A stretch of DNA of 61,217 nucleotides, counting the filler. It is 6 parts of 6 records of this genome, joined end to end, with 100 filler letters (N's around TTAATTAATTAA, not from the genome) between each part and the next. Parts side by side here need not be neighbours in the genome. Positions count along the whole stretch, not along the records: positions 35,494 to 46,607 come from SRR2962707_3195; 5 more parts are not named here. One strand, written 5' to 3'. The position numbers were made by a program, and so were the translations under genes. Position 1 is the stretch's first letter. The number at the start of each line of letters is the position of its first letter. The notes under the pieces were generated by a model. It searched no databases. It saw nothing but the letters and a program-made list of their open reading frames with translations, and was not told the DNA's origin. Shown in pieces: positions 11,791-46,707 of this stretch.

Positions 11791-11890
11791 NNNNNNNNNN
11801 NNNNNNNNNNNNNNNNNNNNNNNNNNNNNNNNNNTTAATTAATTAANNNNNNNNNNNNNNNNNNNNNNNNNNNNNNNNNNNNNNNNNNNN
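11791..11890. other. artificial contig spacer
   Basis: N44-TTAATTAATTAA-N44; stops in all six frames. Confidence 0.99.
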
Positions 11891-18311: not shown

Positions 18312-18411
18312 NNNNNNNNNNNNNNNNNNNNNNNNNNNNNNNNNNNNNNNNNNNNTTAATTAATTAANNNNNNNNNNNNNNNNNNNNNNNNNNNNNNNNN
18401 NNNNNNNNNNN
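18312..18411. other. artificial contig spacer
   Basis: N44-TTAATTAATTAA-N44. Confidence 0.99.
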
Positions 18412-28423: not shown

Positions 28424-28523
28424 NNNNNNNNNNNNNNNNNNNNNNNNNNNNNNNNNNNNNNNNNNNNTTAATTAATTAANNNNNNNNNNNNNNNNNNNNN
28501 NNNNNNNNNNNNNNNNNNNNNNN
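28424..28523. other. artificial contig spacer
   Basis: N44-TTAATTAATTAA-N44. Confidence 0.99.
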
Positions 28524-35393: not shown

Positions 35394-35493
35394 NNNNNNN
35401 NNNNNNNNNNNNNNNNNNNNNNNNNNNNNNNNNNNNNTTAATTAATTAANNNNNNNNNNNNNNNNNNNNNNNNNNNNNNNNNNNNNNNNNNNN
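35394..35493. other. artificial contig spacer
   Basis: N44-TTAATTAATTAA-N44. Confidence 0.99.
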
Positions 35494-35494
35494 G

Positions 35495-35544
35495 TGGTGC
35501 CCGGGACCGGAATCGAACCAGTGACACGCGGATTTTCAATCCGC
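35495..35544 (-). tRNA. tRNA-Phe(GAA) 3' half only (att core)
   Basis: Reverse complement GCGGA-TTGAAAA-TCCGC-GTGTC-ACTGGTTCGATTCCGGT-CCCGGGC-ACCA; the D arm and 5' acceptor strand are absent. Confidence 0.9.
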
Positions 35545-35587
35545 CCATTATCTATATTTCACGGCGCAAATCGCCTATATGTTGCGC

Positions 35588-36283
35588 CTATGTCGCGTTC
35601 GTTGTGAGCGCCTTCCACTTGCGCGCACTATGATCCTCGACAACGTTGAAAGTTTTATGTGCCGGGCGAGCCTTTCGAACTGTGACCCCCGGATATTGGG
35701 AAAGCAGCATTGCGAGCCTGCCAGCGCTAAGGACTGAGCGATGGCCTACGATAATCTCGCGCAATTGCAGGTGAGGTTCGATATCTGCGAAGTGGAGCAT
35801 ACTGACTGGGTCAAGATTTTTGAGACCAGAGAACAACCGCCACTCTTTCTCATAGCTCCACGCCTCAAATTTAAGCCCGATTAGCCTATTGTACGCCTTA
35901 GCGAATTCTCCGGGGTCTGCCTGTGCTTCCGCTTCGACCGGATCTTTCAAATTGAGCATCTCGGCGGTCGGTCTGACTGTCACATATTCGACCTTGGTCA
36001 AGTACTTTTCATCGACGTCGAAGCCGAGGCAAATACCTTTGTGCGACGCCGCATAATGCGCCCACAACAGCGGCTCATTCCAATGTTCGCTGAAGCAGAC
36101 AAGTCCGGCGTGATCGTTCCAATACGCTTTCCAGCTGCGCAAGTACCTCCGGACTTCCTTTTCGGCGATCACTCCAGCAAATTCAAACGGATCGTTGAGC
36201 TCAGAAATGCGGGCCAACTTCAGGCGCCTATCCCGAAGCGCGGCAAGCCCGTACTCCATGCCAGTGAAATGATAGAGCCTCAT
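35588..36283 (-). CDS. DUF2971 family protein
   Basis: MRLYHFT, LNDPFE, CFSE, LLWAHYAASHKGICLGF and KFEAWSYEKEWR motifs; ATGA overlap with integrase stop. Confidence 0.85.
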   Translation of the reverse strand: MRLYHFTGMEYGLAALRDRRLKLARISELNDPFEFAGVIAEKEVRRYLRSWKAYWNDHAGLVCFSEHWNEPLLWAHYAASHKGICLGFDVDEKYLTKVEYVTVRPTAEMLNLKDPVEAEAQADPGEFAKAYNRLIGLKFEAWSYEKEWRLFSGLKNLDPVSMLHFADIEPHLQLREIIVGHRSVLSAGRLAMLLSQYPGVTVRKARPAHKTFNVVEDHSARKWKALTTNAT

Positions 36284-37521
36284 CCTGTTGAGCCGAGCAA
36301 ACTCGCCTCCGCTGCCGCCATTTCGTCGGCATCCTCCCCCCGCGGAAACAGGTGCGAGTAGGTGTCCATCGTCAAATTGATAGTGGCATGACCTAGCCGC
36401 TCCTGCACCACCTTCGGCGGCAGGCCAAGCCCGCCATCCTGCGGCCGGTTGATGCACCAGCTGGCGTAGAAGTGCCTCAAGGCGTGCATGCCAGTATAGC
36501 GGGCGGTGGTAATCGGCTGGCCATCGGCGTCGACCTCGCCAGTCTCCACTGTCACTCCAGCCCGGCGCTGGACCGGTAGCAAGCCGCGGTTGACCATGTT
36601 GGCCAGGCTCTCGACCTTGCCACGGCCATTGGGGAACACCAGTTCCAGATCCATGATCGGGTGCCCCTGATCATCCTTGCGGCCGGTATCGCGGCGCGGG
36701 CACACCAGGCGCCATTCGCGCAGCGTGTTGACCACGATCGGCGGAAGGGGCACTTCGCGCTCGCCAGCTTCGGACTTCGGCTGGCCAATGTCATTAAAGC
36801 GGTCTGCGCGCTGGTTGACGTGCAGCCACTTGCGCTCCAGATCAACGTCGCTCCAGCGCAACCCACGCAACTCCGAAGCGCGCAGGCCAGTGAAGATTGC
36901 AGTGAGCAGCACCGGGCGCCATCGCCCCTGCAGCGCCCCCACAATAGCTTTGATCTCTGCGGGCGCTGGAATATCCACTCCCACCTTCAATTTGCCCTTG
37001 GCGCGCTTCTCTGCCCGCCTATCAGATGATCCGCGCCGCCCGCGCATCTCACGCACCACATTGCGGGCAACCAGGCCGCGCTCCTGGGCGTCGGCAATGA
37101 GAGAGCCGAGGCTGACCACCACCTTGCGAACCATGGCCGGTGAGCGACCCTCATCGAGCATCCGCTCTTCGAATTGTCGCAGCGCCGGCAGTGTCAGGGC
37201 GTTGAGGCGCGTTTCACCGATGAACGGGCCAATGTGGAGCTCAAGGTGTTGGCGATACTGGTCGACAGTAGAGCGCTCGCGCCCTGCCCTGCCCTTCGCG
37301 GCGATCCACATGCGGCCGGCGTGCATGACCGTCGCGCTGGCCGCGTCTGCCACGTGCACGCCCTCGCGGACTTCCACGGCGGCGGTGGAGGCGAACTGGT
37401 CGGCCTCTTTCTTGCGCTCAAAGGTCTTGAGGCGCCGCTTGCCCTGGCTATCGAGGTAATCGACCACCCATGCGGATTTCTCGACGCCGCCAGTCGACCA
37501 GGTGCGTTTACGGACGCTCAT
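36280..37521 (-). CDS. int: tyrosine recombinase/integrase
   Basis: TGLRASEL (R), PKS (K), HALRH, LGH and TMDTYSH (Y); N-terminal arm-binding region. Confidence 0.96.
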   Translation of the reverse strand: MSVRKRTWSTGGVEKSAWVVDYLDSQGKRRLKTFERKKEADQFASTAAVEVREGVHVADAASATVMHAGRMWIAAKGRAGRERSTVDQYRQHLELHIGPFIGETRLNALTLPALRQFEERMLDEGRSPAMVRKVVVSLGSLIADAQERGLVARNVVREMRGRRGSSDRRAEKRAKGKLKVGVDIPAPAEIKAIVGALQGRWRPVLLTAIFTGLRASELRGLRWSDVDLERKWLHVNQRADRFNDIGQPKSEAGEREVPLPPIVVNTLREWRLVCPRRDTGRKDDQGHPIMDLELVFPNGRGKVESLANMVNRGLLPVQRRAGVTVETGEVDADGQPITTARYTGMHALRHFYASWCINRPQDGGLGLPPKVVQERLGHATINLTMDTYSHLFPRGEDADEMAAAEASLLGSTG

Positions 37522-37916
37522 TTGCGTCTAACTGGAGGCACAAGCCAAGGCTTCATTTCGTCACGCGAAATGCTGTCATTGGCAATCTGGTCCATTTTAG
37601 ACCGCATGGCATTGAGGTGTGACTCGCACGCTTCAATTATGCCCCGAGCCAGCTGCAGCCGCGCCAGTTCATCGATCAGGTTACGCTTGTCCGGCAATGT
37701 ACCCTCCGACAGGGGAAGACGTGCCGGAATTTCACCCTCAAATGGCTCGATCCGGGCATGCAGCCCGGCGATATCTCGCTGCAATCTTTGCACTTCGACC
37801 GTAAGTTTTGTGACGCCATCAGCTAGCCTGGCAATTTGCTCTTGGATTTCGCTCACGTTCGCCTCCTGGATGTTTGATGTCGGTGATGGCATCGGGCCAG
37901 GTGCGCTTGCGGACAC
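37518..37916 (-). CDS. hypothetical coiled-coil protein
   Basis: 132 aa, ATGA-coupled to int. Confidence 0.6.
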   Translation of the reverse strand: MSASAPGPMPSPTSNIQEANVSEIQEQIARLADGVTKLTVEVQRLQRDIAGLHARIEPFEGEIPARLPLSEGTLPDKRNLIDELARLQLARGIIEACESHLNAMRSKMDQIANDSISRDEMKPWLVPPVRRK

Positions 37917-37953
37917 TCATCGCTTTGACGGCTCAATTTGCTCCGCGCTCCAG

Positions 37954-38235
37954 TCACGCCCGGACCTCCTGAAGACTGGCGGCGCGTCCAGCGGGCGACG
38001 CAGAGCGCAGGCCTGAAGTACGCAAGCCCGCCTCAGTGGCAGTCGGGCCAAGCACCACGCGATTTTGTTCGATGAAGCGGGTGATTTCCTCACGCTCATA
38101 TCGGCGAGTTGGGCACTTTTTACCCAAGCCGATGTTGGTGCTACTCAGACGCCCCGCGTCTGAAAGCTCCCGCAGCTGCCGTTCAGAGATAGCTAATAGC
38201 TGCGAAGCCTGTTGTGGCGTCAGCAGTGCGGCCAT
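37954..38235 (-). CDS. excisionase-like HTH protein
   Basis: LLTPQQASQLLAISERQLRELSDAGRL...RRYEREEITRFIE. Confidence 0.8.
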   Translation of the reverse strand: MAALLTPQQASQLLAISERQLRELSDAGRLSSTNIGLGKKCPTRRYEREEITRFIEQNRVVLGPTATEAGLRTSGLRSASPAGRAASLQEVRA

Positions 38236-38237
38236 GG

Positions 38238-38681
38238 CTAGGCCTTGCCCTTGTTTTGTCCGTCCTTGGTCACTGCGTTCTTCATAATTTCAACGTTTCG
38301 CATCGCCTCGTCAAAGGTGGCCGCGCCACGCCAAATGTCCTGATTAAGCTGTACGTCAAATAGCGGAATACATAGGCCCAATGCCGCCTGAACTACTGAA
38401 AGGGACATTTCAAAGTGCGCCTCCCAGTCCAGATCGGCCCCTTGAGATGGATGCCATCCCTCAAAGAGTTTGCGCATTTCCGTGGTGAGATCGACAACTT
38501 CGTGGCTGCGTTCATCCAAGGCATCCGCATTTTTCTCGAGAGATAGAGCGATTTGGCAAAGGCGCCGTATTGCCTCGCCTCTCGAGCGAATTCGTTTGGA
38601 AAACATCCAGTCGTCGATTTCTGCCAGTTCGCCTGGCGTCATCATTGTAACAACCCGCTGGTCCTTCAGCTCTCCCGACAT
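38238..38681 (-). CDS. ribbon-helix-helix repressor-like protein
   Basis: DQRVVTMMTPGELAEIDDWMFSKRIRSRGEAIRRLC; GGAG RBS. Confidence 0.75.
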   Translation of the reverse strand: MSGELKDQRVVTMMTPGELAEIDDWMFSKRIRSRGEAIRRLCQIALSLEKNADALDERSHEVVDLTTEMRKLFEGWHPSQGADLDWEAHFEMSLSVVQAALGLCIPLFDVQLNQDIWRGAATFDEAMRNVEIMKNAVTKDGQNKGKA

Positions 38682-38705
38682 TCCAGCTCCTGCAGAAACA
38701 TGCAC

Positions 38706-38779
38706 AACTTTACCAAGTCCTATTGACACATTTGGCCGACGCAGAGCAAGAATGTGCGTGTTGGTAAACTTTACCAAGT
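38706..38779. promoter_or_regulatory. divergent promoter/operator region
   Basis: Palindrome TTGGTAAA-C-TTTACCAA (38761-38777); AACTTTACCAAGT repeated at 38706 and 38767; TTGACA at 38723. Confidence 0.7.
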
Positions 38780-38797
38780 GTGAAAGGAAATTGCAGA

Positions 38798-39001
38798 ATG
38801 CAATCGCAGCGATGCAATCGCTTTGTGCTGATGCTCTCAGATGGGGAGGTGGCAGCAATCCAAGACTATCGTTTCGCTCACCGCGTCGGCAGCAAGGCCG
38901 GCGCAGCACGCAGGCTCATCGAAAATGGTCTAAAAGCCGAAAAAGAAAATGGCCCAGCAGCGACGGCAATCGCTCTGGACCAGGAACCGACCACCCCCTG
39001 A
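38798..39001 (+). CDS. small ribbon-helix-helix regulator
   Basis: RFVLMLSDGEVAAIQDYRFAHRVGSKAGAARRLIENGL; AAGGA RBS. Confidence 0.7.
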   Translation: MQSQRCNRFVLMLSDGEVAAIQDYRFAHRVGSKAGAARRLIENGLKAEKENGPAATAIALDQEPTTP

Positions 39002-39015
39002 ACAGGAATAGATCA

Positions 39016-39339
39016 ATGCTCAGCAATGAGAATAGCACCAGCACGCCTGGCAGCGCAACGCCCATCGACTGGCGGGCTGTGGTAGATGGCCATGACGGCC
39101 TCTACGACCATGCAGTCATCATGGCCCGCCATCTTTACGTTTTGATGGACCGGCTCGAAACCGGCCTCAATGCGAACCGTGGACGTGTGGCTGAAACCGG
39201 TATCACCCTTGTTTTCCAGCAAGATGGCATCGACGCCAACCTTTGGCTCGTTAGCGAGGCATGGCAGCTCGCCAAAAGCCTTCGTGAGAAGATCGAGGCC
39301 GTCCAGGACCAGATGGAAGCCGACGAGGTGGTATCATGA
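39016..39339 (+). CDS. hypothetical protein
   Basis: 107 aa, AGGA RBS, ATGA-coupled to next gene. Confidence 0.65.
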   Translation: MLSNENSTSTPGSATPIDWRAVVDGHDGLYDHAVIMARHLYVLMDRLETGLNANRGRVAETGITLVFQQDGIDANLWLVSEAWQLAKSLREKIEAVQDQMEADEVVS

Positions 39340-39578
39340 CCCCGCGCGAACGCCTCGAATACATCATCGAAACCGCCCTCTGCCTGCTCGACCAGATCGA
39401 TGGCGATTGCGACCTCGAACCAGAAACTCTCGAAAGTTCCCTTGGTGGAGCCTGCTACAGCGCTAGCGACAAGCTGTTCGATGATCTGGAGCTCGACAAT
39501 TCCGACAACGAACTGGAAGAACCAACCCGCTTCGATCCTCAAGGCAGCTGGATCTCTGGAGGCTCAAATGCAGCCTGA
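39336..39578 (+). CDS. small acidic hypothetical protein
   Basis: 80 aa, LLDQIDGDCDLE, 20 Asp/Glu residues; GAGG RBS. Confidence 0.7.
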   Translation: MTPRERLEYIIETALCLLDQIDGDCDLEPETLESSLGGACYSASDKLFDDLELDNSDNELEEPTRFDPQGSWISGGSNAA

Positions 39579-39759
39579 ACTCGAGACTCTCGATCTGGTC
39601 TGGGGCGCCAAAGCAATCGCCAAAATCCTTGGCGTCACCGACCGCGCCGTTTTCCACATGCTGGCCAAAGGCGAGCTGCCGGCGCGCCAGGTGGGCCAGC
39701 GATGGGTGGCCAGCCGTCGAAAGCTTGTCGAGCACTTCGAGCGGGAGACCCTGCCATGA
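39568..39759 (+). CDS. AlpA/excisionase-like DNA-binding protein
   Basis: DLVWGAKAIAKILGVTDRAVFHMLAKGELPARQVGQRWVASRRKL; GGAGG RBS. Confidence 0.82.
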   Translation: MQPELETLDLVWGAKAIAKILGVTDRAVFHMLAKGELPARQVGQRWVASRRKLVEHFERETLP

Positions 39760-39881
39760 GATTGATCGGCATCTACATCGCTCGGGCCCGCCTAGCGGTG
39801 GCCAGATGGCACCGCAGACAAGCACTCGCCCATGTTGCCGCGGCTGCTCGATACTTGGAGGGGCTGCGCAATGAGACATAG
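39756..39881 (+). CDS. 41-aa basic hypothetical protein (not in ORF track)
   Basis: MRLIGIYIARARLAVARWHRRQALAHVAAAARYLEGLRNET; overlaps both neighbours. Confidence 0.5.
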   Translation: MRLIGIYIARARLAVARWHRRQALAHVAAAARYLEGLRNET

Positions 39882-40125
39882 CCAGGCACGCCGCCGGCGG
39901 TGGAAGACATTGCTGCCGCCAATTCATGATCGGCGCCCTGACCCGCTTGCAGCCCATCGCAGGGCCAACCTGGCTGTTGCTGTCGCCTTGCGCGATGGCA
40001 GGCTTGAGAAACAGCCCTGCGAGGTCTGTGGAACGGCGGAGGGCGTAGAGGCGCACCACGACGACCTAACCGCGCCTCTCGACGTGCGGTGGCGCTGCGC
40101 AACCCATCCGCAGGGGCGTCAATGA
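39871..40125 (+). CDS. small HNH-like zinc-binding protein
   Basis: CEVCG...EAHHDDLTAPLDVRWRCATH; GGAGG RBS. Confidence 0.65.
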   Translation: MRHSQARRRRWKTLLPPIHDRRPDPLAAHRRANLAVAVALRDGRLEKQPCEVCGTAEGVEAHHDDLTAPLDVRWRCATHPQGRQ

Positions 40126-40943
40126 CCAGTTCCCCGCGGTGGTACCGCTTCTTTCCAACGGACTGGCTATCGCGCATCGGCGACCTGTCTTCAGTCGAGC
40201 GTGGCGTATTGCTGACGCTGGTCTGTCTGATGTTCGAGCGAGGCGACAGATTGCCACGTGATGACGCACGGTTGGCCCGACTTTGCGGCATGACTCCAGC
40301 GTCGTTTCGCAAGGCTTTGAACGCTCTAATTCATGAGGGCAAGGTGACCGAAACCGATGGCCTGCTATCCACGGAATGGGTCGCGGTTGAACTCGCAAAC
40401 ACATTTCAAAAGGCGAACTCCGCAAGTCGGAGTGCGAAAGCAAGGTGGGATAAAAAGCCCAACGAAAACAATGACACCCCTGATGCGTCCGCATCGCCAA
40501 CGCATCCAGAACGCATATGCGAACCGGATGCTACCCAGAACCAGAAAGAAACCCCTATAGGCCCTAAGGGCCAAAATGGTTTGATTGATCTGAGTGGAAT
40601 GTCTCGGGAGATCCAGACCTACACAAGCCTGGGGATCAACCGGGAGGCAGCGCTGGGCGTCGAATGCCATCGGTGCGGTGCAACGCCGAACGCGCCGTGT
40701 GTTGGCACTGATGGCGCCCAGCGGGCACGATCCCACATCCAGCGCTATCAGTTGGTTGCGCATCACCGGAACGTCCCAACGGCAAGCACCGGCGGCGAAC
40801 TTCCCGTGATCCGCGAAGATGACCCGATAGCCCCGTTCCTGGCCAAGGTGCGTGGGAAGCCGATCTATTGGGGCATCAGGTCATGCACAACGGCTACACC
40901 TGCCGAGATGGACGCTGCTCGGGCGCTGGCAGGTGCAGCATGA
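40122..40943 (+). CDS. DUF1376/YdaU-type phage replication initiator with C-terminal zinc finger
   Basis: WYRFFPTDWL...LSSVERGVLLTLVCLMF...LPRDDARLARLCG...KARW; CHRCGATPNAPC...H. Confidence 0.82.
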   Translation: MTSSPRWYRFFPTDWLSRIGDLSSVERGVLLTLVCLMFERGDRLPRDDARLARLCGMTPASFRKALNALIHEGKVTETDGLLSTEWVAVELANTFQKANSASRSAKARWDKKPNENNDTPDASASPTHPERICEPDATQNQKETPIGPKGQNGLIDLSGMSREIQTYTSLGINREAALGVECHRCGATPNAPCVGTDGAQRARSHIQRYQLVAHHRNVPTASTGGELPVIREDDPIAPFLAKVRGKPIYWGIRSCTTATPAEMDAARALAGAA

Positions 40944-41097
40944 CCGGGGGCGCGTCTGCAAAGTCCACCGAACCAACAGCCCAGACCGGTGCTGGGCCAA
41001 ATCTCTCGTATTTGCAGATTGATGTTCTGAGAGATCCAATCTGCAACGCCGACTGACCCACCTGCCAGCCCACCCACAACCCGAGAAAGTACAAATC

Positions 41098-41367
41098 ATG
41101 AACAAAACACCAGCCAACGACACCCAGCCAAACCAAAAGCGGGTCAAGGAAATGTGTGACCTCATGGTCGAGCGCGCCACGACAATGATGGCCGATGAAG
41201 CTGGGGCGCCGGTCGAGATGATTGTCGATCGTCTGCTCACGTTCGCCATTGCTCAGATGGCATCGACCCATGGCCGCCAGGAAGCGCTCAACATGCTGCG
41301 CTTTGCGTCCGATCAGGTGAAAGCTGGGAAATTCGACCACCTGATCCACAGCGGCCGGCCAAACTGA
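41098..41367 (+). CDS. hypothetical protein
   Basis: 89-aa helical ORF at the end of the early operon. Confidence 0.65.
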   Translation: MNKTPANDTQPNQKRVKEMCDLMVERATTMMADEAGAPVEMIVDRLLTFAIAQMASTHGRQEALNMLRFASDQVKAGKFDHLIHSGRPN

Positions 41368-41368
41368 C

Positions 41369-41480
41369 TTGCCGGCCAATGCCTTCGCGCCTATTATCGG
41401 GGCGTCTGATTTGCATGCGTCACCAGCTGGTCTGGGACGAAAGGCAACCAGGCACCTTCGATGTCACCAGCTGGTCTGGG
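41369..41480 (+). promoter_or_regulatory. sigma70-like promoter plus two 18-bp direct repeats
   Basis: TTGCCG-N17-TATTAT (41369-41397); GTCACCAGCTGGTCTGGG at 41419 and 41463. Confidence 0.65.
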
Positions 41481-41539
41481 GCGCGAAGCACTGAAAAAGG
41501 GCACCACGGTGCCTGTGCTTTGTCGCATCGAGGTGCCTT

Positions 41540-42190
41540 ATGAAATTCGACACAACCACCAAGCAATCTGGATTCCTTCGCCTCAAATTCGCTTCCGATC
41601 AGTCGGGCGTGTTCGAGGGCTATGGCGCGATCTACGGCAACGTAGACAGCTATGGCGACATGATCATGCCAGGCGCATTCGCGAAGAGCTTGGCGGCACA
41701 CAAAACGGCTGGCACGCTGCCAGTGATGCTGTGGGGGCACGACTCGTCCCGGCCGATCGGCCGCTGGCTGGAAGTGCGCGAGGACTCATTCGGCCTCTTC
41801 GTTCGCGGCCAGTGCAATCTCGAAACGACTGCAGGCAAGGACGCCCAAGCCCACATCGCCAATGGCGACGTAACGGGCATGTCGATCGGCTATCGCCTCC
41901 CAGATGGCGGTTGGCACCGGGACGAAGGCGTCACCAAACTCACAGAAATCGATTTGAAAGAGGTGTCAGTCGTCGCCATCCCCGCGAACGACCGCGCCCG
42001 TGTCACCAGCAAAGCCGATTTGGTCGACCTGCTGATTAAAACCGGCCTGCCCCGTGCAGCCGCATCGAAGGTCGCCGCCGGCGGCTTCTCTGCCCTCTCC
42101 CAGAACCACCATACCGACGACGAACTGGTCAAGGCCGCCTTGGTCGCAGTGAACGCGTCACTGAAAAATCTTGAAAGGAATACCCGATGA
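41540..42190 (+). CDS. HK97 family prohead protease
   Basis: FEGYGAIYGNVDSYGD, PGAF, MLWGHD (His), GMSIGY (Ser) and LKEVSVVAIPAN (Glu). Confidence 0.95.
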   Translation: MKFDTTTKQSGFLRLKFASDQSGVFEGYGAIYGNVDSYGDMIMPGAFAKSLAAHKTAGTLPVMLWGHDSSRPIGRWLEVREDSFGLFVRGQCNLETTAGKDAQAHIANGDVTGMSIGYRLPDGGWHRDEGVTKLTEIDLKEVSVVAIPANDRARVTSKADLVDLLIKTGLPRAAASKVAAGGFSALSQNHHTDDELVKAALVAVNASLKNLERNTR

Positions 42191-43413
42191 GCAAAGGAAC
42201 CCGCGCTGGCGGCTATGGCTTCACCGCAATGAACTATCTGGGCGCACCTCAGATCGCATTCGATCACACCGAACGCGGCGGCGGTGGCGATATCAACGTC
42301 AAAGACCTGATGTCCGCATTTGAAAAGCGCGACGAAAAGCTGATCGCTGAACTGGCAACCGTACAGGTCAAAACCGCGGCGGTGGCCGAACAGCTAGCCC
42401 AGATTGAACAGCGCATCGCGGAAGGTGACGGCGGCAGCTTCCAGAGCCGCGACACCGGCGCCACCGTTGGTGAGCAATTCATCAACAGCGAGAACGTGAA
42501 AGGACTTCTCGAAACCGCCAACCGTCGCGGGAAGGCCGATCTTCAGCTCAAGGCGTCCTTGACCTCGCTGACCACTGACGCAGCCGGATCTGTTGGCGTT
42601 GGTATGGCCCGCAGTCGGGATAACATGGTGTTGCTCCCGCAGCGCCGGCTGACCGTACGCAGCCTGCTGCCACAAATTCAGATCACCACTGGCGCCGTGG
42701 AGGTGCCGGTGCAGAAGGGCCGCAACAACAATGCCGCGATGGTGGCGGAAGGTACGGCGAAGCCGCAAAGCGACATCCAGCTCGAGCTCAAGACTTTCAA
42801 CGCTCGAACTATCGCCCACTGGATGAAGGCGTCGCGGCAGGTGCTGGATGACGTGCCACAACTTCGCGGTATCGTTGACAATGAACTGCTGCAGGGCCTG
42901 GGCTTGAAGGAGGAAGGGCAGCTACTGAACGGCGACGGCACCGGCCAGAACCTCTTCGGCATGGTTCCGCAGGCGACCGCCTATTCCGCGCCTATCGCTA
43001 TCGCTAGCGCCACGAGCATCGACACAATTGGCCTGGCACTGCTGCAGAACGCGCTGGCTGAGTACCCTGCGGACGGTATCATCATGAACCCTGCAGACTG
43101 GCTCTACATCCGCCTGCTCAAAGACGCGGGCGGCAACTACATTTTTGGCGAACCAGGCCAGACAGTGGAGCCGCGCCTGTTTGGTGTTCCGGTGATTGCA
43201 ACGCCAGCCATGGCTGTCGACAAATTTCTCGTAGGCCAATTCCAGACCGCCGCGACCATCTATGACCGCTGGGACGCTCGCGTCGAGATCGCCACGGAAA
43301 ACGAAGACGACTTCATCAAGAACATGCTCACGATCCTGGCCGAGCAGCGCCTCGCATTTGCCGTCAAGCGCCCTCTCGCTCTGACCTATGGTGACTTTGG
43401 GCGCGTGGCATAG
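42187..43413 (+). CDS. HK97 family major capsid protein
   Basis: Coiled-coil delta domain; RRLTVRSLL, VAEGTAKP, TIAHWMKASRQVLDD, LLNGDGTG, MNPADW and DDFIKNMLTILAEQR. Confidence 0.95.
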   Translation: MSKGTRAGGYGFTAMNYLGAPQIAFDHTERGGGGDINVKDLMSAFEKRDEKLIAELATVQVKTAAVAEQLAQIEQRIAEGDGGSFQSRDTGATVGEQFINSENVKGLLETANRRGKADLQLKASLTSLTTDAAGSVGVGMARSRDNMVLLPQRRLTVRSLLPQIQITTGAVEVPVQKGRNNNAAMVAEGTAKPQSDIQLELKTFNARTIAHWMKASRQVLDDVPQLRGIVDNELLQGLGLKEEGQLLNGDGTGQNLFGMVPQATAYSAPIAIASATSIDTIGLALLQNALAEYPADGIIMNPADWLYIRLLKDAGGNYIFGEPGQTVEPRLFGVPVIATPAMAVDKFLVGQFQTAATIYDRWDARVEIATENEDDFIKNMLTILAEQRLAFAVKRPLALTYGDFGRVA

Positions 43414-43582
43414 CCATTGCGACGACCGGCCCGGCAGTCGGTCAGCGCAGGGGGCGGGAATAATCCCACCCGCCCCCAATTACTCCACCGGTGACCAAGT
43501 TCCGTTCGCACCGAGAGCAAATTCAAAAACAAAAGTTGAGGCCACCCCCGTAGGGGGTGATGTGTATCGAAAGATAATCCCA

Positions 43583-43756
43583 ATGACAGAAAACCTGTCT
43601 CCGAAGATGGCAGCCCGTCGCGCGGCGCTTGCCGAGGCTATCATTCCAATGCTTGAGGCTCAAAAAGTAAAGCTCGATGCCGGCAGGCCAGCATCAAGCG
43701 AGGATAGGGCACGGCTTGAGGAAGATCTGGCTTGGTGGTCGAGGGAGGCGAAGTAA
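43583..43756 (+). CDS. 57-aa hypothetical protein
   Basis: TAATG overlap with the fibre gene; start uncertain. Confidence 0.5.
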   Translation: MTENLSPKMAARRAALAEAIIPMLEAQKVKLDAGRPASSEDRARLEEDLAWWSREAK

Positions 43757-45399
43757 TGGCAACACCTGGCCCCTACAACGTCGGCACTATCACGGTGGCG
43801 AACGGCTCGACATCGATCGCAGGCACAAACACCTTTTGGGTTGGTGCGGTTCGGGAGAATGACATGCTGTTCGTCCCTTCGCAGGGATTGATGGCCCGCG
43901 TCACTGCTGACCCAACGAATAACGCAGTCTTGGCGATCACGGCCTGGGCCGGCACGTCTCTCGTAGATGCCGCCTATGAAATCATCCCGGCCGCGGATTC
44001 CACCACAAGTTCGGCTCGGGTGCGCGATCTGCTGGCCAACCTCACAGTCGTGGAAGCCAACGGACGCGGCCTGTTCTATCGCTTCAGCGACAGCGTGTCC
44101 GATGCCGATCCGGGCTCTGGCTATCTGCGCTTGAACAACGCATCGATTGGAAGCGCGACTGCGGCCTATGTCGACAATCTCGACGCCAACGGCGCCACGG
44201 TCTTGGCCGTTCTCGACAGCTGGGATGATGCAGCCACTGCAGCAGCGCGCGGGCAACTGTGGCTACGCTCCGTTGCTGACCCTGCAGCCTTTCATGCCTT
44301 CAAGGTCTCCGGCTCTGTCGTGGACGGCAACGGCTATCGCAAGCTGACCCTGACCTATATCGGTGGGTCGAGCACGTTCTCGGCAGATGACGAGATGATG
44401 GTAATGTTTTCAGCTCAAGGCGCGGACGGCACAAATGCCATTCTCGGCGTCTGGCAAGGCGCATGGGTCACTGCTACCGGCTATGACGTTGACGACCTCG
44501 TCGAGGAGTCCGGCAGCACCTACATCTGCGTTGAGGCGCATACGTCGGGAACATTTGCGACAGACCTTGCTGCGGCCAAATGGGAACTCGCGGTCGAGAA
44601 GGGCGATACCGGCGGCCAAGGCGATCAGGGCGACAAAGGTTGGTCTCCGCAGATTGTGGTGGTTTCAGATGGCACGAGGCGCGTTCACCAGCTTGCCGGC
44701 TATGTAGGCGGCACTGGCACGGCACCCACGGCGAACGTCGGTGAATACCTCAAGGGAGACGGCACGTTTACCGCAACGATAGGCGATGCGGTTGAAATGC
44801 GTGGCCCGGCTGGCCTCAACGGCGCAGGCACTGTTGCAAGTGTCGAGGCGGGCACTGCCATTGCAGTGGATAGCGCCGACGCGACCGCTCCCATCGTCTC
44901 CGCCATTCTCGCAAGCCAGGTGGAGGCGGAGGCCGGGGCAATCAACAGCAAGCTGATGACGCCCCTGCGTGTGCAGCAAGCCATCGAAGCGGCGGTCCCC
45001 AACGTTGGAACATTCACTGGTCAGCTGACCCCGGCTTCATCGGGGTCCATCACGATGGGCAACAACACCGGCACCTACTTTCGCTTTGGTGACATGGTGT
45101 TCTTCACCGGCATATTCGACGCTTCGTCGGTCTCTTCGCCGTCTGGGCTGCTAACCCTTGTCACTACCGGCTTGCCGGTGAGCGCAAACAACAACCGCAA
45201 CACTGCGGCTATCACACTGAACATATTCAGCCAGGTAGGCGGCGCCGATACCATCTTTCAGGCTCGCCTTCTGAAGAACACGGCCGATATCAAGATCGTT
45301 CACCTCAATCTTACCAGTGGCACAGAAGGATCAAACACAAGCGCCTTGATCAAAGCCAATACGGCAGTGGTGCTGAGTGGATTCTACATGGTTGCATGA
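43756..45399 (+). CDS. phage tail fibre/receptor-binding-like protein
   Basis: N-terminal YNVGTITVANGSTSIAGTNTFW; CBM-like WQGAW...GSTYICVEAHTS; collagen-like GDTGGQGDQGDKG; fibre repeat ASQVEAEAG...MTPLRVQQAI; GGAGG RBS. Confidence 0.8.
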   Translation: MATPGPYNVGTITVANGSTSIAGTNTFWVGAVRENDMLFVPSQGLMARVTADPTNNAVLAITAWAGTSLVDAAYEIIPAADSTTSSARVRDLLANLTVVEANGRGLFYRFSDSVSDADPGSGYLRLNNASIGSATAAYVDNLDANGATVLAVLDSWDDAATAAARGQLWLRSVADPAAFHAFKVSGSVVDGNGYRKLTLTYIGGSSTFSADDEMMVMFSAQGADGTNAILGVWQGAWVTATGYDVDDLVEESGSTYICVEAHTSGTFATDLAAAKWELAVEKGDTGGQGDQGDKGWSPQIVVVSDGTRRVHQLAGYVGGTGTAPTANVGEYLKGDGTFTATIGDAVEMRGPAGLNGAGTVASVEAGTAIAVDSADATAPIVSAILASQVEAEAGAINSKLMTPLRVQQAIEAAVPNVGTFTGQLTPASSGSITMGNNTGTYFRFGDMVFFTGIFDASSVSSPSGLLTLVTTGLPVSANNNRNTAAITLNIFSQVGGADTIFQARLLKNTADIKIVHLNLTSGTEGSNTSALIKANTAVVLSGFYMVA

Positions 45400-45403
45400 T
45401 GCG

Positions 45404-45475
45404 CCGGGGGCACCCAAAACTTCAGAAAGCGACCGTTCTCTGGACCCGCCATTCCCTCACGCAGAGATTTTTTTC
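45404..45475 (+). other. putative cos-like packaging site
   Basis: GGGGGCACCCAAAACTTCAG...GGACCCGCCATTCCCTCACGCAGAGATTTTTTT; resembles, from memory, cos regions of HK97-like phages. Confidence 0.5.
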
Positions 45476-45492
45476 TTGCTGGAAGTTCCCAG

Positions 45493-45630
45493 GTGCGAAC
45501 CAAGTGCGAACCTTGGCAAGAACCTGATATAAGTCTCTGATAACATTGGATCTCCTCAATTTTGAGGAGAACCCAAAATGGTTCGCAGTTCGCAGCTAGG
45601 TTTGCAGCGTGCGAACCAGTGCGAACCAGT
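45493..45630. repeat. cluster of GTGCGAACC repeats around a palindrome
   Basis: Copies at 45493, 45504, 45609 and 45619; inverted partial copies at 45580 and 45588; palindrome TCTCCTCAA-TT-TTGAGGAGA at 45551-45570. Confidence 0.8.
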
Positions 45631-45634
45631 AAAA

Positions 45635-46123
45635 TCACAGGCGCTGTGTCATTCGCATGTAGGGCGCAACAAGCCCTGGCAGGTCTTTTCTCAGCGCGAT
45701 AGCAACAGCCACATATTTCCCCTTGGCGGCCGTTCTCCCAGCGTCGGTAGAGTTAGTTCTAACGAACGACAGCGTGACACTCAGAGCTTCGCTCTGCAGC
45801 TGCTCAACTCGCAACGGAACCGTCCCACCGAAAAGAAAGCTGCATTCAGCGGCAAGTCTGGTGATGGTCAGGAACGCTGCATGAACCTCCTGCTCAGAAG
45901 CGTCGAGCTGAGCGAAGAGAACGTTTGCTAGTTCGAAATACCAAGCAAACCGGCGTTCAAATAGGTCGAGTACCAGCTTTTCTCGTGCAACTCGCCATTG
46001 CCGATAAGCGACAATGGCAACTGCAACTGCGACACAGGCCGTTATTGCAGACGCACTGGCTGGCGCTAGGGCAGCAAACCATTGCGCCCATTCTGGCAAA
46101 ATCAACACTTCGACAGCCGCCAT
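45635..46123 (-). CDS. hypothetical membrane-anchored cargo protein
   Basis: TM helix then YRQWRVAREKLVLDLFERRF; GAGG RBS. Confidence 0.7.
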   Translation of the reverse strand: MAAVEVLILPEWAQWFAALAPASASAITACVAVAVAIVAYRQWRVAREKLVLDLFERRFAWYFELANVLFAQLDASEQEVHAAFLTITRLAAECSFLFGGTVPLRVEQLQSEALSVTLSFVRTNSTDAGRTAAKGKYVAVAIALRKDLPGLVAPYMRMTQRL

Positions 46124-46187
46124 TTATTCGCCCTCATGTCGTATCCATGTCGCATGGATTCGCCGAAAGTGTCACGCATGTGGTGCA

Positions 46188-46433
46188 CTAGGTGTTGTCT
46201 CCCTTGCCCGCTCGATCTGCAAAACTGTGTCTCGGCTCAGTGGGCTGCAGGTCACTTAGGAAATCGAGCCACCTGTCTATTGCCCTGATGTCATAAAGAG
46301 CCTTGGCACCAATCTTCACGGGCACCACCGGACACCAGGCAGAGAAGCCATCGGTGGATTTGAAGCCGACATAGTTGGCGGCCTCGATCTTGGTGAGCAT
46401 TCGCCGGGTTGGTAGCGCGAGCGCTGGTTTCAT
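46188..46433 (-). CDS. excisionase-like small DNA-binding protein
   Basis: RMLTKIEAANYVG...LYDIRAIDRWLD; AAGGA RBS; next to att. Confidence 0.75.
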   Translation of the reverse strand: MKPALALPTRRMLTKIEAANYVGFKSTDGFSAWCPVVPVKIGAKALYDIRAIDRWLDFLSDLQPTEPRHSFADRAGKGDNT

Positions 46434-46577
46434 GTTGCATCCTTGTCGCGTGGATTCGCCGAGACAGTCGAGAACGTCGCGGAAATGCTGGGAATTGCTT
46501 TGCAACACGCACGCAACAAATTTGCGCCAACTTCGCGGGCGCAACACAATTAACTGATTGAAACATATGGGAAAATT

Positions 46578-46607
46578 GTGGTGCCCGGGACCGGAATCGA
46601 ACCAGTG
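46578..46607. repeat. second att copy (tRNA-Phe 3' end)
   Basis: GTGGTGCCCGGGACCGGAATCGAACCAGTG, identical to 35494-35523. Confidence 0.95.
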
Positions 46608-46707
46608 NNNNNNNNNNNNNNNNNNNNNNNNNNNNNNNNNNNNNNNNNNNNTTAATTAATTAANNNNNNNNNNNNNNNNNNNNNNNNNNNNNNNNNNNNN
46701 NNNNNNN
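46608..46707. other. artificial contig spacer
   Basis: N44-TTAATTAATTAA-N44. Confidence 0.99.

What the first reader, a model, noticed from the sequence alone, without database searches (positions are those of the whole stretch)
35494..46607. Complete ~11.1-kb tRNA-Phe element: candidate new type of phage satellite (capsid + protease + fibre, no portal or terminase)
Seen: an att-bounded unit of 11,084 bp with intact, tightly coupled genes. The order is DUF2971, int, xis, a divergent RHH pair, an early operon with AlpA-like, HNH-like and DUF1376 rep genes, then protease, capsid, fibre, a cos-like site and cargo. No recognisable portal, terminase, head-tail connector, tail tube, tape measure or lysis gene is present, and no unassigned ORF is long enough to be a portal or TerL. 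Known: PICIs carry int/alpA/primase and sometimes a capsid-size gene or TerS; cf-PICIs carry capsid, protease, portal and both terminases but no tail genes; P4 uses Sid/Psu. Inference: this combination fits none of them. It suggests a satellite, probably alphaproteobacterial, that builds its own small head and supplies its own adhesin while taking portal, terminase and tail from an HK97-like helper.
Basis: partly seen in the sequence, partly recalled or inferred. Interest (0 to 1): 0.92.

Follow-up and report, generated by a model that had tools for sequence, protein, structure and literature searches.

The report
Portal-less capsid-carrying phage satellite family
This 11-kb mobile element that inserts into a tRNA-Phe gene carries its own phage head-shell, head-protease and tail-fibre genes but no portal or DNA-packaging motor, and it belongs to a small, conserved lineage of such elements that most likely travel as parasites of full-size phages.

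Summary
The 11,114-bp stretch is real but is one whole contig of a draft assembly: N/TTAATTAATTAA linkers lie on both sides, so its window neighbours are not its real neighbours, and no complete tRNA-Phe is present. Its ends share 30 bp inside a 51-nt tRNA-Phe 3' fragment. The gene calls hold: PDC-S31/DUF2971, integrase, HTH_17, RHH-like pair, AlpA-like, HNH, DUF1376 replication protein, S78 protease, HK97 capsid, fibre-like protein. No portal or TerL appears in any frame. A sibling (L104; MCP 99% aa) sits integrated between a 54-55-nt attL and an intact tRNA-Phe in a 635-kb scaffold (11,198 bp). A second sibling (L105) is 11,622 bp. Allorhizobium has a 9.9-kb relative at tRNA-Phe. All nine portal-less elements form one MCP clade (100/100) nested among portal-bearing phages. 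MCP, orf89, integrase, HNH and fibre are under purifying selection. One member is inserted in a prophage's portal gene. So this is not a one-off deletion or a misassembly. It is a PICI-like satellite lineage. Small integrase+capsid islands (phiRv1/2, Gram-negative PICIs with captured late genes, 'twilight' portal-less HK97 mini-genomes) are already in print, so I rate it a new variant of a known kind, not a new type.

The parts
35494..35544 (-). attL: 51-nt copy of the 3' part of tRNA-Phe (anticodon loop to 3' end); the first 30 nt are repeated at the right end
   Evidence: This stretch is 100% identical to the 3' part of the intact tRNA-Phe of L104. Contigs in runs X1, X5 and X8 read on from 35544 into the rest of a real tRNA-Phe (table 7).
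35588..36283 (-). Accessory gene: DUF2971 / PADLOC candidate defence family PDC-S31 (the ORF is open to 36457; the likely start is M59)
   Evidence: Pfam DUF2971 1e-6; phrog_1762 6e-31; PDC-S31 4.8e-27. The same family occupies the same slot in L104.
36280..37521 (-). Tyrosine integrase
   Evidence: Phage_integrase 5e-14; phrog_1 5.4e-63. It is 92% aa identical in L104 with dN/dS 0.12 and 80% identical in L105.
37518..37916 (-). orf132, coiled-coil protein of unknown role; belongs to a swapped module
   Evidence: Only sub-threshold coiled-coil Pfam matches. No homologue in L104.
37954..38235 (-). HTH_17 protein (excisionase/MerR-like)
   Evidence: HTH_17 1.3e-8. Absent from L104.
38238..38681 (-). 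Leftward RHH/repressor-like gene (the ORF is open to 38909; the likely start is M77)
   Evidence: phrog_4738 transcriptional repressor 5e-5 and phrog_18767 1.5e-4, aa 77-128. L104 carries an Arc-like RHH gene (1.4e-18) in this slot.
38780..39001 (+). Rightward RHH-like gene, divergent from the previous one
   Evidence: phrog_18767 9.5e-5; 37% aa identical in L104.
39336..39578 (+). orf80, acidic small protein of unknown role
   Evidence: No family match; 61% aa identical in L104.
39568..39759 (+). AlpA-like HTH_17 regulator (the ORF is open from 39400; the conserved part starts near M57)
   Evidence: HTH_17 2.2e-5, aa 73-115. The L105 match covers aa 55-117 at 73% identity.
39832..40125 (+). 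HNH endonuclease
   Evidence: phrog_2340 endonuclease 8e-14. It is 82% identical in L104 with dN/dS 0.20, 53% in L105 and 48% in L027.
40089..40943 (+). Replication initiator: DUF1376 + phage zinc-finger; a swappable module
   Evidence: DUF1376 1.3e-11 and Phage_zn_bind_8 3.6e-7; primosomal phrog_9327 2.9e-29. L104 and L105 have a wHTH + DUF6074 pair in its place.
41098..41367 (+). orf89: conserved small helical protein just upstream of the protease, a marker of the module
   Evidence: Homologues lie in the same place in L104, L105, L002 and L021. dN/dS is 0.08. The AF2 model has pLDDT 76 and no fold match.
41379..41543 (+). orf54, small ORF between orf89 and the protease
   Evidence: 70% identical over aa 3-49 in L105; no family match.
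41540..42190 (+). Prohead serine protease (S78)
   Evidence: Peptidase_S78 1.3e-32; phrog_80 1.4e-56.
42187..43413 (+). HK97-type major capsid protein with an N-terminal delta-like region
   Evidence: Phage_capsid 6.1e-54; phrog_10 3.6e-72. It is 99% aa identical in L104 with dN/dS 0.049. Its clade has 100/100 support.
43388..43756 (+). orf122, small ORF between the MCP and the fibre
   Evidence: No family match. aa 39-122 are 84% identical in L104.
43732..45399 (+). Tail-fibre-like protein (short collagen-like run at aa 291; weak CBM_5_12 match)
   Evidence: phrog_5073 tail fiber 9e-10; CBM_5_12 7.6e-4, below the cut-off. It matches phage tail-fibre genes only in part: 6 phage records, best 3e-20. 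dN/dS vs L104 is 0.27.
45493..45627 (.). Non-coding cluster of GTGCGAACC repeats (4 exact direct copies, 1 inverted with 1 mismatch) around an AT-rich palindrome; candidate packaging (cos/pac) site or origin
   Evidence: It is conserved at the same position in L104 (90% over 238 nt) and, degenerate, in L105, although the replication modules differ.
45635..46123 (-). orf162, accessory gene with a predicted hydrophobic N-terminus; a swapped module
   Evidence: No family match. L104 and the X1 contig have 985 other letters here.
46188..46547 (-). orf119, conserved gene of unknown role next to attR
   Evidence: 87% aa identical in L104 with dN/dS 0.30; no family match.
46578..46607 (-). attR: first 30 nt of the tRNA-Phe 3' repeat, cut off by the contig end
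   Evidence: In L104 the same position runs on into a complete tRNA-Phe.

Best explanation
The element is an integrative, helper-dependent phage satellite of the PICI kind. It belongs to a lineage that keeps its own HK97-type capsid protein and maturation protease, an HNH nuclease and usually one large tail protein, but has no portal, terminase, connector, tail tube or lysis genes. SHOWN: it is a discrete unit of about 11 kb bounded by a repeat of the tRNA-Phe 3' end. Siblings are integrated at tRNA-Phe with host DNA on both sides. The backbone (int, AlpA-like, HNH, orf89, orf54, protease, MCP) is conserved, while the regulatory, replication, tail-protein and accessory modules are swapped. MCP, orf89, int, HNH and fibre are under purifying selection. 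The MCPs of all portal-less elements form one clade inside phage MCPs. One clade member sits inside the portal gene of an HK97-like prophage. INFERRED: the integrase, with an HTH_17 factor, excises the element when the divergent RHH-type switch is relieved during helper growth. The DUF1376 protein replicates the circle. The late operon makes procapsids from the element's own MCP and protease on the helper's portal. The helper's terminase, possibly steered by the element's HNH and the repeat cluster at 45493-45627, packages the element. Helper tails are attached, and the element's fibre (tailspike or tape-measure-like protein in relatives) is built into them and alters host recognition or entry. 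The accessory slot next to int carries candidate anti-phage genes (PDC-S31).
For: Unit and context. The 30-bp terminal repeat is 11,084 bp apart. L104 has a 54-55-nt attL at 3590-3643 and an intact tRNA-Phe at 14789-14864, making 11,198 bp inside a 635-kb scaffold. L105 has a 50-nt repeat 11,622 bp apart. L002, from a complete Allorhizobium chromosome, has a 54-nt repeat 9,919 bp apart at tRNA-Phe. An 11,208-bp contig in run X1 is collinear end to end, with four replaced modules.

Missing genes. There is no portal or TerL in six frames of WIN, L001-L003, L021, L089/L090, L104 or L105. By contrast, 13 of 16 genome loci, 73 of 80 viral loci and 52 of 80 metagenome loci have a portal, at a median of 654 bp upstream of the MCP. 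Pfam confirms these as Phage_portal and TerL in 4 of 4 prophages tested.

Lineage. All 9 portal-less rows form one clade with 100/100 support, present in 100% of 200 bootstrap trees (56 rows). In the 98-row quick tree the SH-aLRT is 100 and the stem length 0.55.

Selection. dN/dS is 0.049 for MCP, 0.08 for orf89, 0.12 for int, 0.20 for HNH and 0.27 for the fibre.

Helper link. In provirus G004 the order is TerL, portal N-part, a 10,855-bp element, portal C-part, protease, MCP2. The att core is 11 bp, and the interrupted portal frame stops 5 codons after the junction. The helper's MCP2 lies outside the clade. HK97-type portals occur elsewhere in both host genomes that could be searched: 4 in G001 and 1 in G002.

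Satellite-like traits. Candidate defence genes lie in the accessory slot, and L003 has a Bro-N/ANT gene. The layout matches the four-zone PICI organisation (PMC10111431, section 20 read).
Against: No particle, induction or transfer data exist, and no helper is identified for the window's own strain, because no whole genome is held and the rest of the window has no portal, TerL or second MCP. No TerS or other packaging-specificity gene was recognised. According to PMC10111431 (introduction, citing earlier work), the capsid genes of E. coli PICIs are not needed for transfer, so the MCP may serve another purpose. The integration and replication modules differ between clade members: the WIN integrase matches L104, L105 and L027 but not L002 or L021. 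What is conserved may therefore be a late module rather than one element family. The post-MCP protein is a fibre in only 2 of 9 members (WIN, L104), tailspike-like in 2, TMP-like in 3, and absent in L002 and L003. The module is rare: the orf89 marker was found in 1 of 401 sampled class-level genomes, which was G001 itself. alpA and orf80 give dN/dS of about 0.7, possibly a framing problem. Long branches in the clade mean attraction cannot be fully excluded, although the shared orf89 synteny argues against it.
Confidence: 0.6

Rival explanations
1. The element is a mobilisable island whose capsid and protease genes act mainly as weapons. The MCP/protease (and the fibre or TMP) co-assemble with, or poison, the helper's head and tail assembly. 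This protects the host population, while the island is still packaged in helper-made capsids, as in PICIs whose capsid homologue is dispensable for transfer.
For: [quoted passage not shown] The element carries candidate defence genes (PDC-S31; SoFic in L002). The clade MCP is only about 49% identical to the MCP of the one identified helper, so mixed assembly could be disruptive. No packaging-specificity gene was found.
Against: A complete, co-transcribed protease + MCP pair with a delta-like N-terminus is what is needed to make real procapsids. Very strong purifying selection acts on the whole MCP (dN/dS 0.049), and the protease is retained in all 8 members whose contig reaches that position (L001's contig starts at the MCP). 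This fits a working shell better than a decoy. The two roles are not exclusive.
Confidence: 0.15
2. It is a decaying prophage remnant: a former 40-kb HK97-like prophage that lost portal, terminase and tail genes by deletion and is now an inert island that can at most excise.
For: MCP relatives at similar identity (46-57%) are common in 35-56-kb proviruses. The order HNH...protease-MCP-tail gene follows phage order. The tail protein differs between members, as random deletion end-points might produce.
Against: All nine portal-less elements form one deep clade (100/100), so the state is old and inherited. Three siblings keep 11.1-11.6 kb despite module swaps. No portal or TerL pseudogene fragments occur in six frames. 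The att sites and ORFs are intact, under purifying selection. AlpA-like, replication and defence modules are satellite traits, and one member is inserted in a prophage portal gene.
Confidence: 0.07
3. It is an autonomous portal-less HK97 'mini virus' that packages and delivers its genome by a non-canonical route, without any helper, as proposed as an alternative for 'twilight-zone' genomes.
For: Size (11.08 kb) and content (HK97 MCP, integrase, replication protein, no portal/terminase) match the 'mini genome' class of PMC13669383 (sections 8, 9, 14 read).
Against: The MCP is a canonical Phage_capsid/S78 pair with no encapsulin-type domain. There is no HUH/rolling-circle Rep. A tail-fibre, tailspike or tape-measure-like gene makes sense only with a tail. 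One member is physically embedded in a complete HK97-like prophage.
Confidence: 0.04
4. It is an assembly artefact: a circular plasmid or phage contig, or a chimeric contig, wrongly read as an integrated island.
For: The unit is a stand-alone contig with a 30-bp terminal overlap, the length expected of a k=31 graph. The window shows no chromosomal junction.
Against: The contig starts exactly at the 3' end of the tRNA-Phe homology, which is where the assembly graph would branch at an att repeat. L104 shows the same unit integrated with host flanks and a full tRNA-Phe. L105 and L002 show the same. The collinear 11,208-bp X1 contig rules out chimerism. An excised circular copy may co-exist, and that would fit a mobile element.
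Confidence: 0.05

Closest known systems
Gram-negative PICIs with captured late genes, including helper-embedded PICIs (Tommasini, Mageeney & Williams 2023, PMC10111431)
   Same: About 10-20-kb integrase islands ordered Integration (int, HTH_17/AlpA), regulatory/Bro, Replication, then Late zone. The late zone holds helper-type late genes, most often a major capsid gene. Some members insert into prophage late genes, including portal. L003 has a Bro-N/ANT gene and L027 sits in a portal gene.
   Different: The hosts here are Alphaproteobacteria or marine bacteria, not Enterobacterales. The MCP is HK97/Phage_capsid type with its own S78 protease, forming a separate deep clade. The int points outward, with a divergent RHH switch. 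Replication uses DUF1376 or wHTH+DUF6074 instead of a primase. No TerS was found. A tail fibre, tailspike or TMP-like gene follows the MCP.
Capsid-forming PICIs (cf-PICI; Alqurainy et al. preprint 10.1101/2022.09.08.507074, abstract seen in a listing; SatelliteFinder model in PMC10085698, passages read)
   Same: A satellite that encodes its own MCP, head protease and HNH and takes tails from a helper.
   Different: The cf-PICI model has 11 core components. The passages I read name terL and the head-tail adaptor and connector, and list the cf-PICI portal profile. None of these, and no TerS, was found here. Tail genes are forbidden in the cf-PICI model, yet one is present here.
phiRv1/phiRv2 and other mycobacterial integrase + capsid islands treated as PICIs (PMC10085698; PMC10654092, passages read)
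   Same: Small tRNA- or gene-integrated islands with an integrase, replication genes and a phage major capsid gene but no full virion gene set, and with no helper yet demonstrated.
   Different: A different phylum, often serine integrases, and no sequence relationship tested here. That phiRv1/2 also carry a prohead protease is my recollection and comes from no call.
'Twilight-zone' mini HK97 genomes (Aguilar et al. 2026, PMC13669383; sections 8, 9, 14 read)
   Same: Genomes of 5-11.6 kb with an HK97-fold MCP, integrase/excisionase and replication genes but no portal, terminase or tail module, with satellite status hypothesised. Of these genomes, 23 of 536 carry a tail gene.
   Different: Their dominant group is human-gut, 8.75 kb, with encapsulin-like MCP domains and a scaffold protein. 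Here the MCP is a canonical Phage_capsid with an S78 protease, in environmental Alphaproteobacteria-type hosts, with integrated copies and a helper-embedded member. Their supplementary lists, which I could not open, may include relatives.
P4 (recalled from general knowledge; P4's 11.6-kb genome size also stated in PMC13669383, introduction read)
   Same: An integrative satellite of about 11 kb that redirects a helper's head assembly. A similar genome size would suit a small T=4-like head.
   Different: P4 uses the helper's capsid protein with the external scaffold Sid. No Sid, Psu or P4 alpha primase family appeared among the Pfam/PHROG hits here.
Marine VEIMEs (Eppley et al. 2022, PMC9618062, passages read)
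   Same: Marine integrative satellites, some in Alphaproteobacteria, some with HNH and serine proteases.
   Different: [quoted passage not shown]

Membership tests
PICI (SatelliteFinder five-component definition; four-zone organisation of PMC10111431) | Integrase at one end | tested here: met
   Phage_integrase 5e-14 and phrog_1 5.4e-63.
PICI (SatelliteFinder five-component definition; four-zone organisation of PMC10111431) | AlpA/MerR/Stl-type regulator next to the integration module | tested here: inconclusive
   There are two HTH_17 proteins (1.3e-8; 2.2e-5, just under the Pfam cut-off) and a divergent RHH-like pair. Pfam Phage_AlpA itself was not hit.
PICI (SatelliteFinder five-component definition; four-zone organisation of PMC10111431) | Primase-replicase module | tested here: inconclusive
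   No primase was found. A DUF1376/primosomal PHROG protein with a zinc finger takes the place, and siblings use wHTH + DUF6074. It is functionally analogous, not homologous.
PICI (SatelliteFinder five-component definition; four-zone organisation of PMC10111431) | Capsid-morphogenesis / capsid homologue gene in the late zone | tested here: met
   Phage_capsid 6.1e-54 plus Peptidase_S78 1.3e-32.
PICI (SatelliteFinder five-component definition; four-zone organisation of PMC10111431) | Small terminase subunit | tested here: not met
   No terminase family was found for any ORF in Pfam or PHROGs. Type B PICIs lacking one component are accepted by SatelliteFinder (PMC10085698).
PICI (SatelliteFinder five-component definition; four-zone organisation of PMC10111431) | No tail or holin genes (forbidden components) | tested here: not met
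   A 555-aa tail-fibre-like gene is present. No holin or lysin was found.
PICI (SatelliteFinder five-component definition; four-zone organisation of PMC10111431) | Induction, packaging and transfer depend on a helper phage | not testable with these tools
   The only evidence is indirect: a clade member embedded in a prophage portal gene.
cf-PICI | Own portal, head-tail adaptor and connector | tested here: not met
   No portal in six frames, and no connector or adaptor family in Pfam or PHROGs.
cf-PICI | Own TerS and TerL | tested here: not met
   No TerL in six frames, and no terminase family match.
cf-PICI | Own MCP, head protease and HNH | tested here: met
Helper-embedded PICI (HE-PICI) | Integrated inside a late gene of a prophage | tested here: not met
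   The window's element uses tRNA-Phe. Only the relative L027 is inside a portal gene.
'Twilight-zone' mini HK97 genomes (PMC13669383) | Genome of 5-11.6 kb with an HK97-fold MCP and no portal or terminase | tested here: met
   11,084 bp.
'Twilight-zone' mini HK97 genomes (PMC13669383) | Encapsulin-type domains in the MCP (dominant group) | tested here: not met
   Only PF05065 Phage_capsid was hit.
Defective prophage | Remnants or pseudogenes of the missing virion genes; relatives are full prophages | tested here: not met
   No remnants were found. The nearest relatives form a portal-less clade.
P4-like satellites | Sid/Psu/Delta and alpha primase-helicase | tested here: not met
   None of the Pfam/PHROG matches of the 19 ORFs scanned is a P4 marker. 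No dedicated P4 profiles were run.

The most novel reading that the evidence does not exclude
This is a distinct satellite strategy between PICI and cf-PICI. The element builds its own HK97-type shell (MCP + protease) around a stolen helper portal, and is filled by the stolen terminase, guided by its own HNH and a repeat-marked packaging site. It then re-arms the stolen tail with its own interchangeable fibre, tailspike or tape-measure protein. The satellite, not the helper, would thus set both head size (about 11 kb unit length) and host range. Some members go further and sit inside the helper's portal gene, making helper portal synthesis depend on satellite excision.
Probability: 0.3. Interest if true: 0.8.

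Novelty: new variant of a known kind. Interest (0 to 1): 0.55.

Why it matters
If these elements work as proposed, they fill the gap between satellites that only remodel a helper's head (P4, PICI) and those that make a whole head and packaging machine (cf-PICI). They would show that shell and portal can come from different genomes. They would also be satellites that swap tail-tip or tape-measure proteins, a route by which a satellite could change where helper-made particles deliver DNA. The member inserted in a prophage portal gene extends helper-embedded satellites beyond Enterobacterales and gives a ready-made satellite-helper pair to test. Practically, current satellite finders would miss the lineage (no TerS, portal or connectors, and a 'forbidden' tail gene), so it marks a blind spot in annotating alphaproteobacterial and marine genomes. 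The module is rare in the genomes sampled, which limits its ecological weight.

Tried and rejected
(1) Whole-genome context of the window: no genome is held. The rest of the window has no portal, TerL, second MCP, tRNA-Phe 5' half or L104-like flanks.

(2) orf89 function: the AF2 model (pLDDT 76) gave no fold match (PDB best E=2, BFVD best E=0.8). The ESM Atlas gave only unnamed clusters below 0.9.

(3) Complex prediction, MCP with orf89: no verdict (score 0.00, controls not run). This is not evidence either way.

(4) Earlier notes of this scan, by place and by sequence: nothing.

(5) Sequencing runs: no run holds the whole element. Eight runs hold 8-15% of its words. I laid 4 of the 8, and all were contigs, so no read-level test of excision or circular junctions was possible.

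(6) Promoter/terminator scan: no more sites than in shuffles.

(7) GTGCGAACC with up to 1 mismatch is not enriched window-wide (20 found against 21.9 expected). Only the clustering of the exact copies is notable. 'cos site' remains a guess.

(8) My first greedy and GC3 gene callers mis-called genes in GC-rich loci and were replaced by six-frame HMM scans.

(9) att copy for L089 (tRNA-Asn) and L001 (tRNA-Ser): none within the contigs, so their sizes are unknown.

(10) Shared N-terminal anchor between the different large tail proteins: none found between the fibre class and the others.

(11) Literature searches for satellites encoding tailspikes or receptor-binding proteins, or for alphaproteobacterial PICIs with capsids, found no specific precedent. 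Supplementary tables of PMC13669383 and PMC10085698 were not opened and may list relatives.

Full report
WHAT IS IN THE WINDOW

The finding's coordinates match one whole contig of a draft assembly. The window is at least six contigs joined by 100-nt linkers (44 N, TTAATTAATTAA, 44 N) at 11791-11890, 18312-18411, 28424-28523, 35394-35493 and 46608-46707. The DNA to the left and right of 35494-46607 is therefore not its real neighbourhood.

ARAGORN finds only a tRNA-Val at 52295, and Rfam finds nothing at gathering score. The 'tRNA-Phe' is a 3' fragment. On the minus strand, 35494-35544 reads from the anticodon loop to the 3' end, and the first 30 nt recur at 46578-46607, where the contig stops. 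Of the six contigs, only this one has a terminal self-overlap, and no contig ends overlap each other.

A contig that starts exactly at the edge of the tRNA homology and ends 30 nt into the same repeat is what a k=31 graph gives at an att repeat. That pattern fits an integrated copy, with or without a co-existing excised circle. This is my inference.

GENE CONTENT

- DUF2971
- tyrosine integrase
- an HTH_17 protein
- a divergent pair of weak RHH/repressor-like ORFs
- an AlpA-like HTH_17 protein
- an HNH endonuclease
- a DUF1376/primosomal protein with a phage zinc finger
- an S78 prohead protease
- an HK97-type major capsid protein
- a 555-aa protein with a tail-fibre PHROG match, a short collagen-like run and a partial match to tail-fibre genes of 6 phage records

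I built portal and TerL HMMs from 10 related prophages, whose ORFs Pfam confirms as Phage_portal and TerL in 4 of 4 tested. These HMMs hit nothing in any frame of the element.

IS IT A COMPLETE UNIT OR A PIECE OF SOMETHING LARGER?

Four independent records answer this.

L104 is a 635-kb metagenome scaffold carrying a sibling. Its MCP is 99% identical in protein, and the DNA of conserved blocks is 87-94% identical. The sibling lies between a 54-55-nt attL (3590-3643) and an intact tRNA-Phe (14789-14864), spans 11,198 bp, and has unrelated host DNA on both sides.

L105 has a 50-nt repeat 11,622 bp apart, ending in a tRNA-Phe, and shares int (80%), AlpA-like, HNH, orf89, orf54, protease (75%) and MCP (58%).

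Run X1 contains an 11,208-bp contig collinear with the element from end to end. Contigs of X1, X5 and X8 read on from position 35544 into the rest of a real tRNA-Phe.

L002 comes from a complete Allorhizobium chromosome. It has a 9,919-bp unit bounded by a 54-nt repeat at tRNA-Phe, containing a replication-like HTH_36 gene with iterons, an orf89 homologue, protease, MCP, a Fic gene, an RHH gene and an integrase.

The misassembly and 'larger prophage' readings are therefore excluded.

ONE-OFF DELETION OR LINEAGE?

I collected MCP relatives from genomes (16 loci), viral contigs (80) and metagenomes (80). A portal lies just upstream of the protease and MCP (median 654 bp) in 13 of 16, 73 of 80 and 52 of 80 loci respectively.

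Most loci without a portal hit are uninformative. Four viral loci have under 700 bp upstream of the MCP, 26 metagenome loci have at most 1,188 bp, and L001's contig begins at the MCP. The informative portal-less loci are WIN, L002, L003, L021, L089/L090, L104 and L105. L027's portal hit is not upstream but beyond its integrase.

In a 98-row tree these rows plus L001 form one group (SH-aLRT 100, stem 0.55). I then built a careful tree of 56 rows: the nine elements plus 47 others that I chose to span the diversity. The rows left out were near-duplicates of retained rows or partial MCPs. In that tree the nine are one clade with 100/100 support, present in 100% of 200 bootstrap trees, nested among portal-bearing phages. 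An 89-aa gene (orf89) sits directly upstream of the protease in WIN, L104, L105, L002 and L021. The portal-less state is therefore inherited, not a recent accident.

ARE THE GENES MAINTAINED?

WIN against L104 gives these dN/dS values:
- MCP 0.049 (25 synonymous against 4 non-synonymous differences)
- orf89 0.08
- int 0.12
- HNH 0.20
- fibre 0.27
- orf119 0.30
- protease 0.35

alpA and orf80 give about 0.7, but their frames overlap and the long alpA ORF is probably mis-started. dS ranges from 0.09 (MCP) to 0.81 (protease). Whole modules are replaced in L104: the xis/RHH block, the DUF1376 gene and orf162. L104 and L105 use a wHTH + DUF6074 pair where WIN has DUF1376. This is the mosaic pattern of an active mobile-element population.

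LINK TO A HELPER

L027 lies in a 54.8-kb provirus (G004). There the order is TerL, portal N-part, a 10,855-bp insert, portal C-part, S78 protease, MCP. The insert carries HNH, protease, MCP, two small ORFs, a 906-aa tape-measure-like protein, DUF4145 and an integrase. The junctions share an 11-bp core within the portal's FFGV codons, and the interrupted portal frame stops five codons after the junction. The prophage's own MCP is 49% identical to the insert's and falls outside the clade.

This is the helper-embedded configuration described for enterobacterial PICIs (PMC10111431). It ties the clade physically to HK97-like siphophage-type prophages. Both host genomes that could be searched also hold HK97-type portals elsewhere: G001 has 4 and G002 has 1.

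THE GENE AFTER THE MCP

It is a fibre in WIN and L104. It is a beta-helix or pectate-lyase tailspike type in L105 and L001, which are related to each other (E 1e-22). It is tape-measure-like in L027 and L021, which are related (E 4e-8), and L089 has a TMP_2 domain. It is absent in L002 and L003. 'Capsid + protease + fibre' is thus one variant of 'capsid + protease + a variable tail protein'.

OTHER FEATURES

The accessory slot by the integrase holds PADLOC candidate defence genes: PDC-S31 in WIN and L104, a weak PDC-S67 in L105, and SoFic in L002.

All 4 exact GTGCGAACC copies in the window lie in 45493-45627, around an AT-rich palindrome. The cluster is kept in L104 and, degenerate, in L105, although their replication genes differ from WIN's. 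This leans towards a packaging or regulatory site rather than a Rep-specific origin, but that is inference only.

The orf89 marker was found in 1 of 401 sampled genomes of the class around G001, and that one was G001 itself. The module is rare.

COMPARISON WITH WHAT IS KNOWN

The layout matches the four-zone organisation of Gram-negative PICIs, which often carry a capsid gene (21 of 29 reference PICIs) and capture helper late genes (PMC10111431, sections 20 and 21 read). Mycobacterial integrase + capsid islands, including phiRv1/phiRv2, are treated as PICIs (PMC10085698, PMC10654092, passages read). Portal-, terminase- and tail-less HK97 'mini genomes' of 5-11.6 kb with integrases were reported in October 2026, with a satellite hypothesis (PMC13669383, sections 8, 9, 14 read).

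The element fails the cf-PICI definition, because it has no portal, connectors or terminases and it has a tail gene. It lacks the PICI TerS. VEIMEs have no capsid genes (PMC9618062, passages read). My searches found no paper describing this alphaproteobacterial/marine clade or satellite-encoded tailspike or TMP swapping. I could not open the supplementary lists of these papers.

VERDICT

The satellite interpretation is well supported by comparative evidence. The 'new type' claim is too strong. This is a new variant of the PICI-like kind: a rare, conserved lineage that carries shell, protease, HNH and a swappable tail protein, while lacking portal and terminase. No experiment exists, so small-head formation, helper identity and the role of the fibre remain inferences.

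Noticed in passing
window 11791-11890, 18312-18411, 28424-28523, 35394-35493, 46608-46707: The window is a concatenation of at least six contigs joined by 44 N + TTAATTAATTAA + 44 N linkers. Any synteny read across these points is artificial.
   Followed up: yes
window 52295-52375: ARAGORN calls an 81-nt tRNA-Val(GAC) with the anticodon at position 37, yet Rfam cmscan at gathering score reports no family at all in the window. The two results disagree and I did not resolve this.
   Followed up: no
L027 / L103 (G004:C1:17000-36000): A 10,855-bp clade member is inserted in the portal gene of a 54.8-kb HK97-like provirus. The att core is 11 bp and the portal frame is truncated 5 codons after the junction. 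This is a ready satellite-helper pair outside Enterobacterales.
   Followed up: yes
L002 7815-7972: Three sets of tandem short repeats (19-, 26- and 21-nt units; 2, 3 and 3 copies) lie inside or beside the HTH_36 replication-like ORF of the Allorhizobium element. They are probably origin iterons.
   Followed up: no
window 35588-36283; L104 3672-4346; L105 631-1194; L002 11252-11926: The accessory slot of the elements carries PADLOC candidate defence genes: PDC-S31 (WIN 4.8e-27, L104 3.6e-24), PDC-S67 (L105, 3.2e-7, weak) and SoFic (L002, 6.7e-21).
   Followed up: partly
L003 957-1730 and 5397-5861: The Sphingomonas member has a Bro-N/ANT antirepressor-type gene between alpA and the protease, and a DUF6950 gene after the MCP. 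The same genome (G002) has a second, portal-linked MCP at 41% identity on another contig, a possible helper.
   Followed up: partly
window 45493-45627: All four exact GTGCGAACC copies in the 61-kb window cluster here with one inverted copy and a CTCCTCAA..TTGAGGAG palindrome. The cluster is conserved in siblings that have a different replication module.
   Followed up: partly
L104 versus window element: dS differs about nine-fold between adjacent genes (MCP 0.09, protease 0.81). The MCP may therefore have been exchanged recently between otherwise diverged siblings.
   Followed up: no
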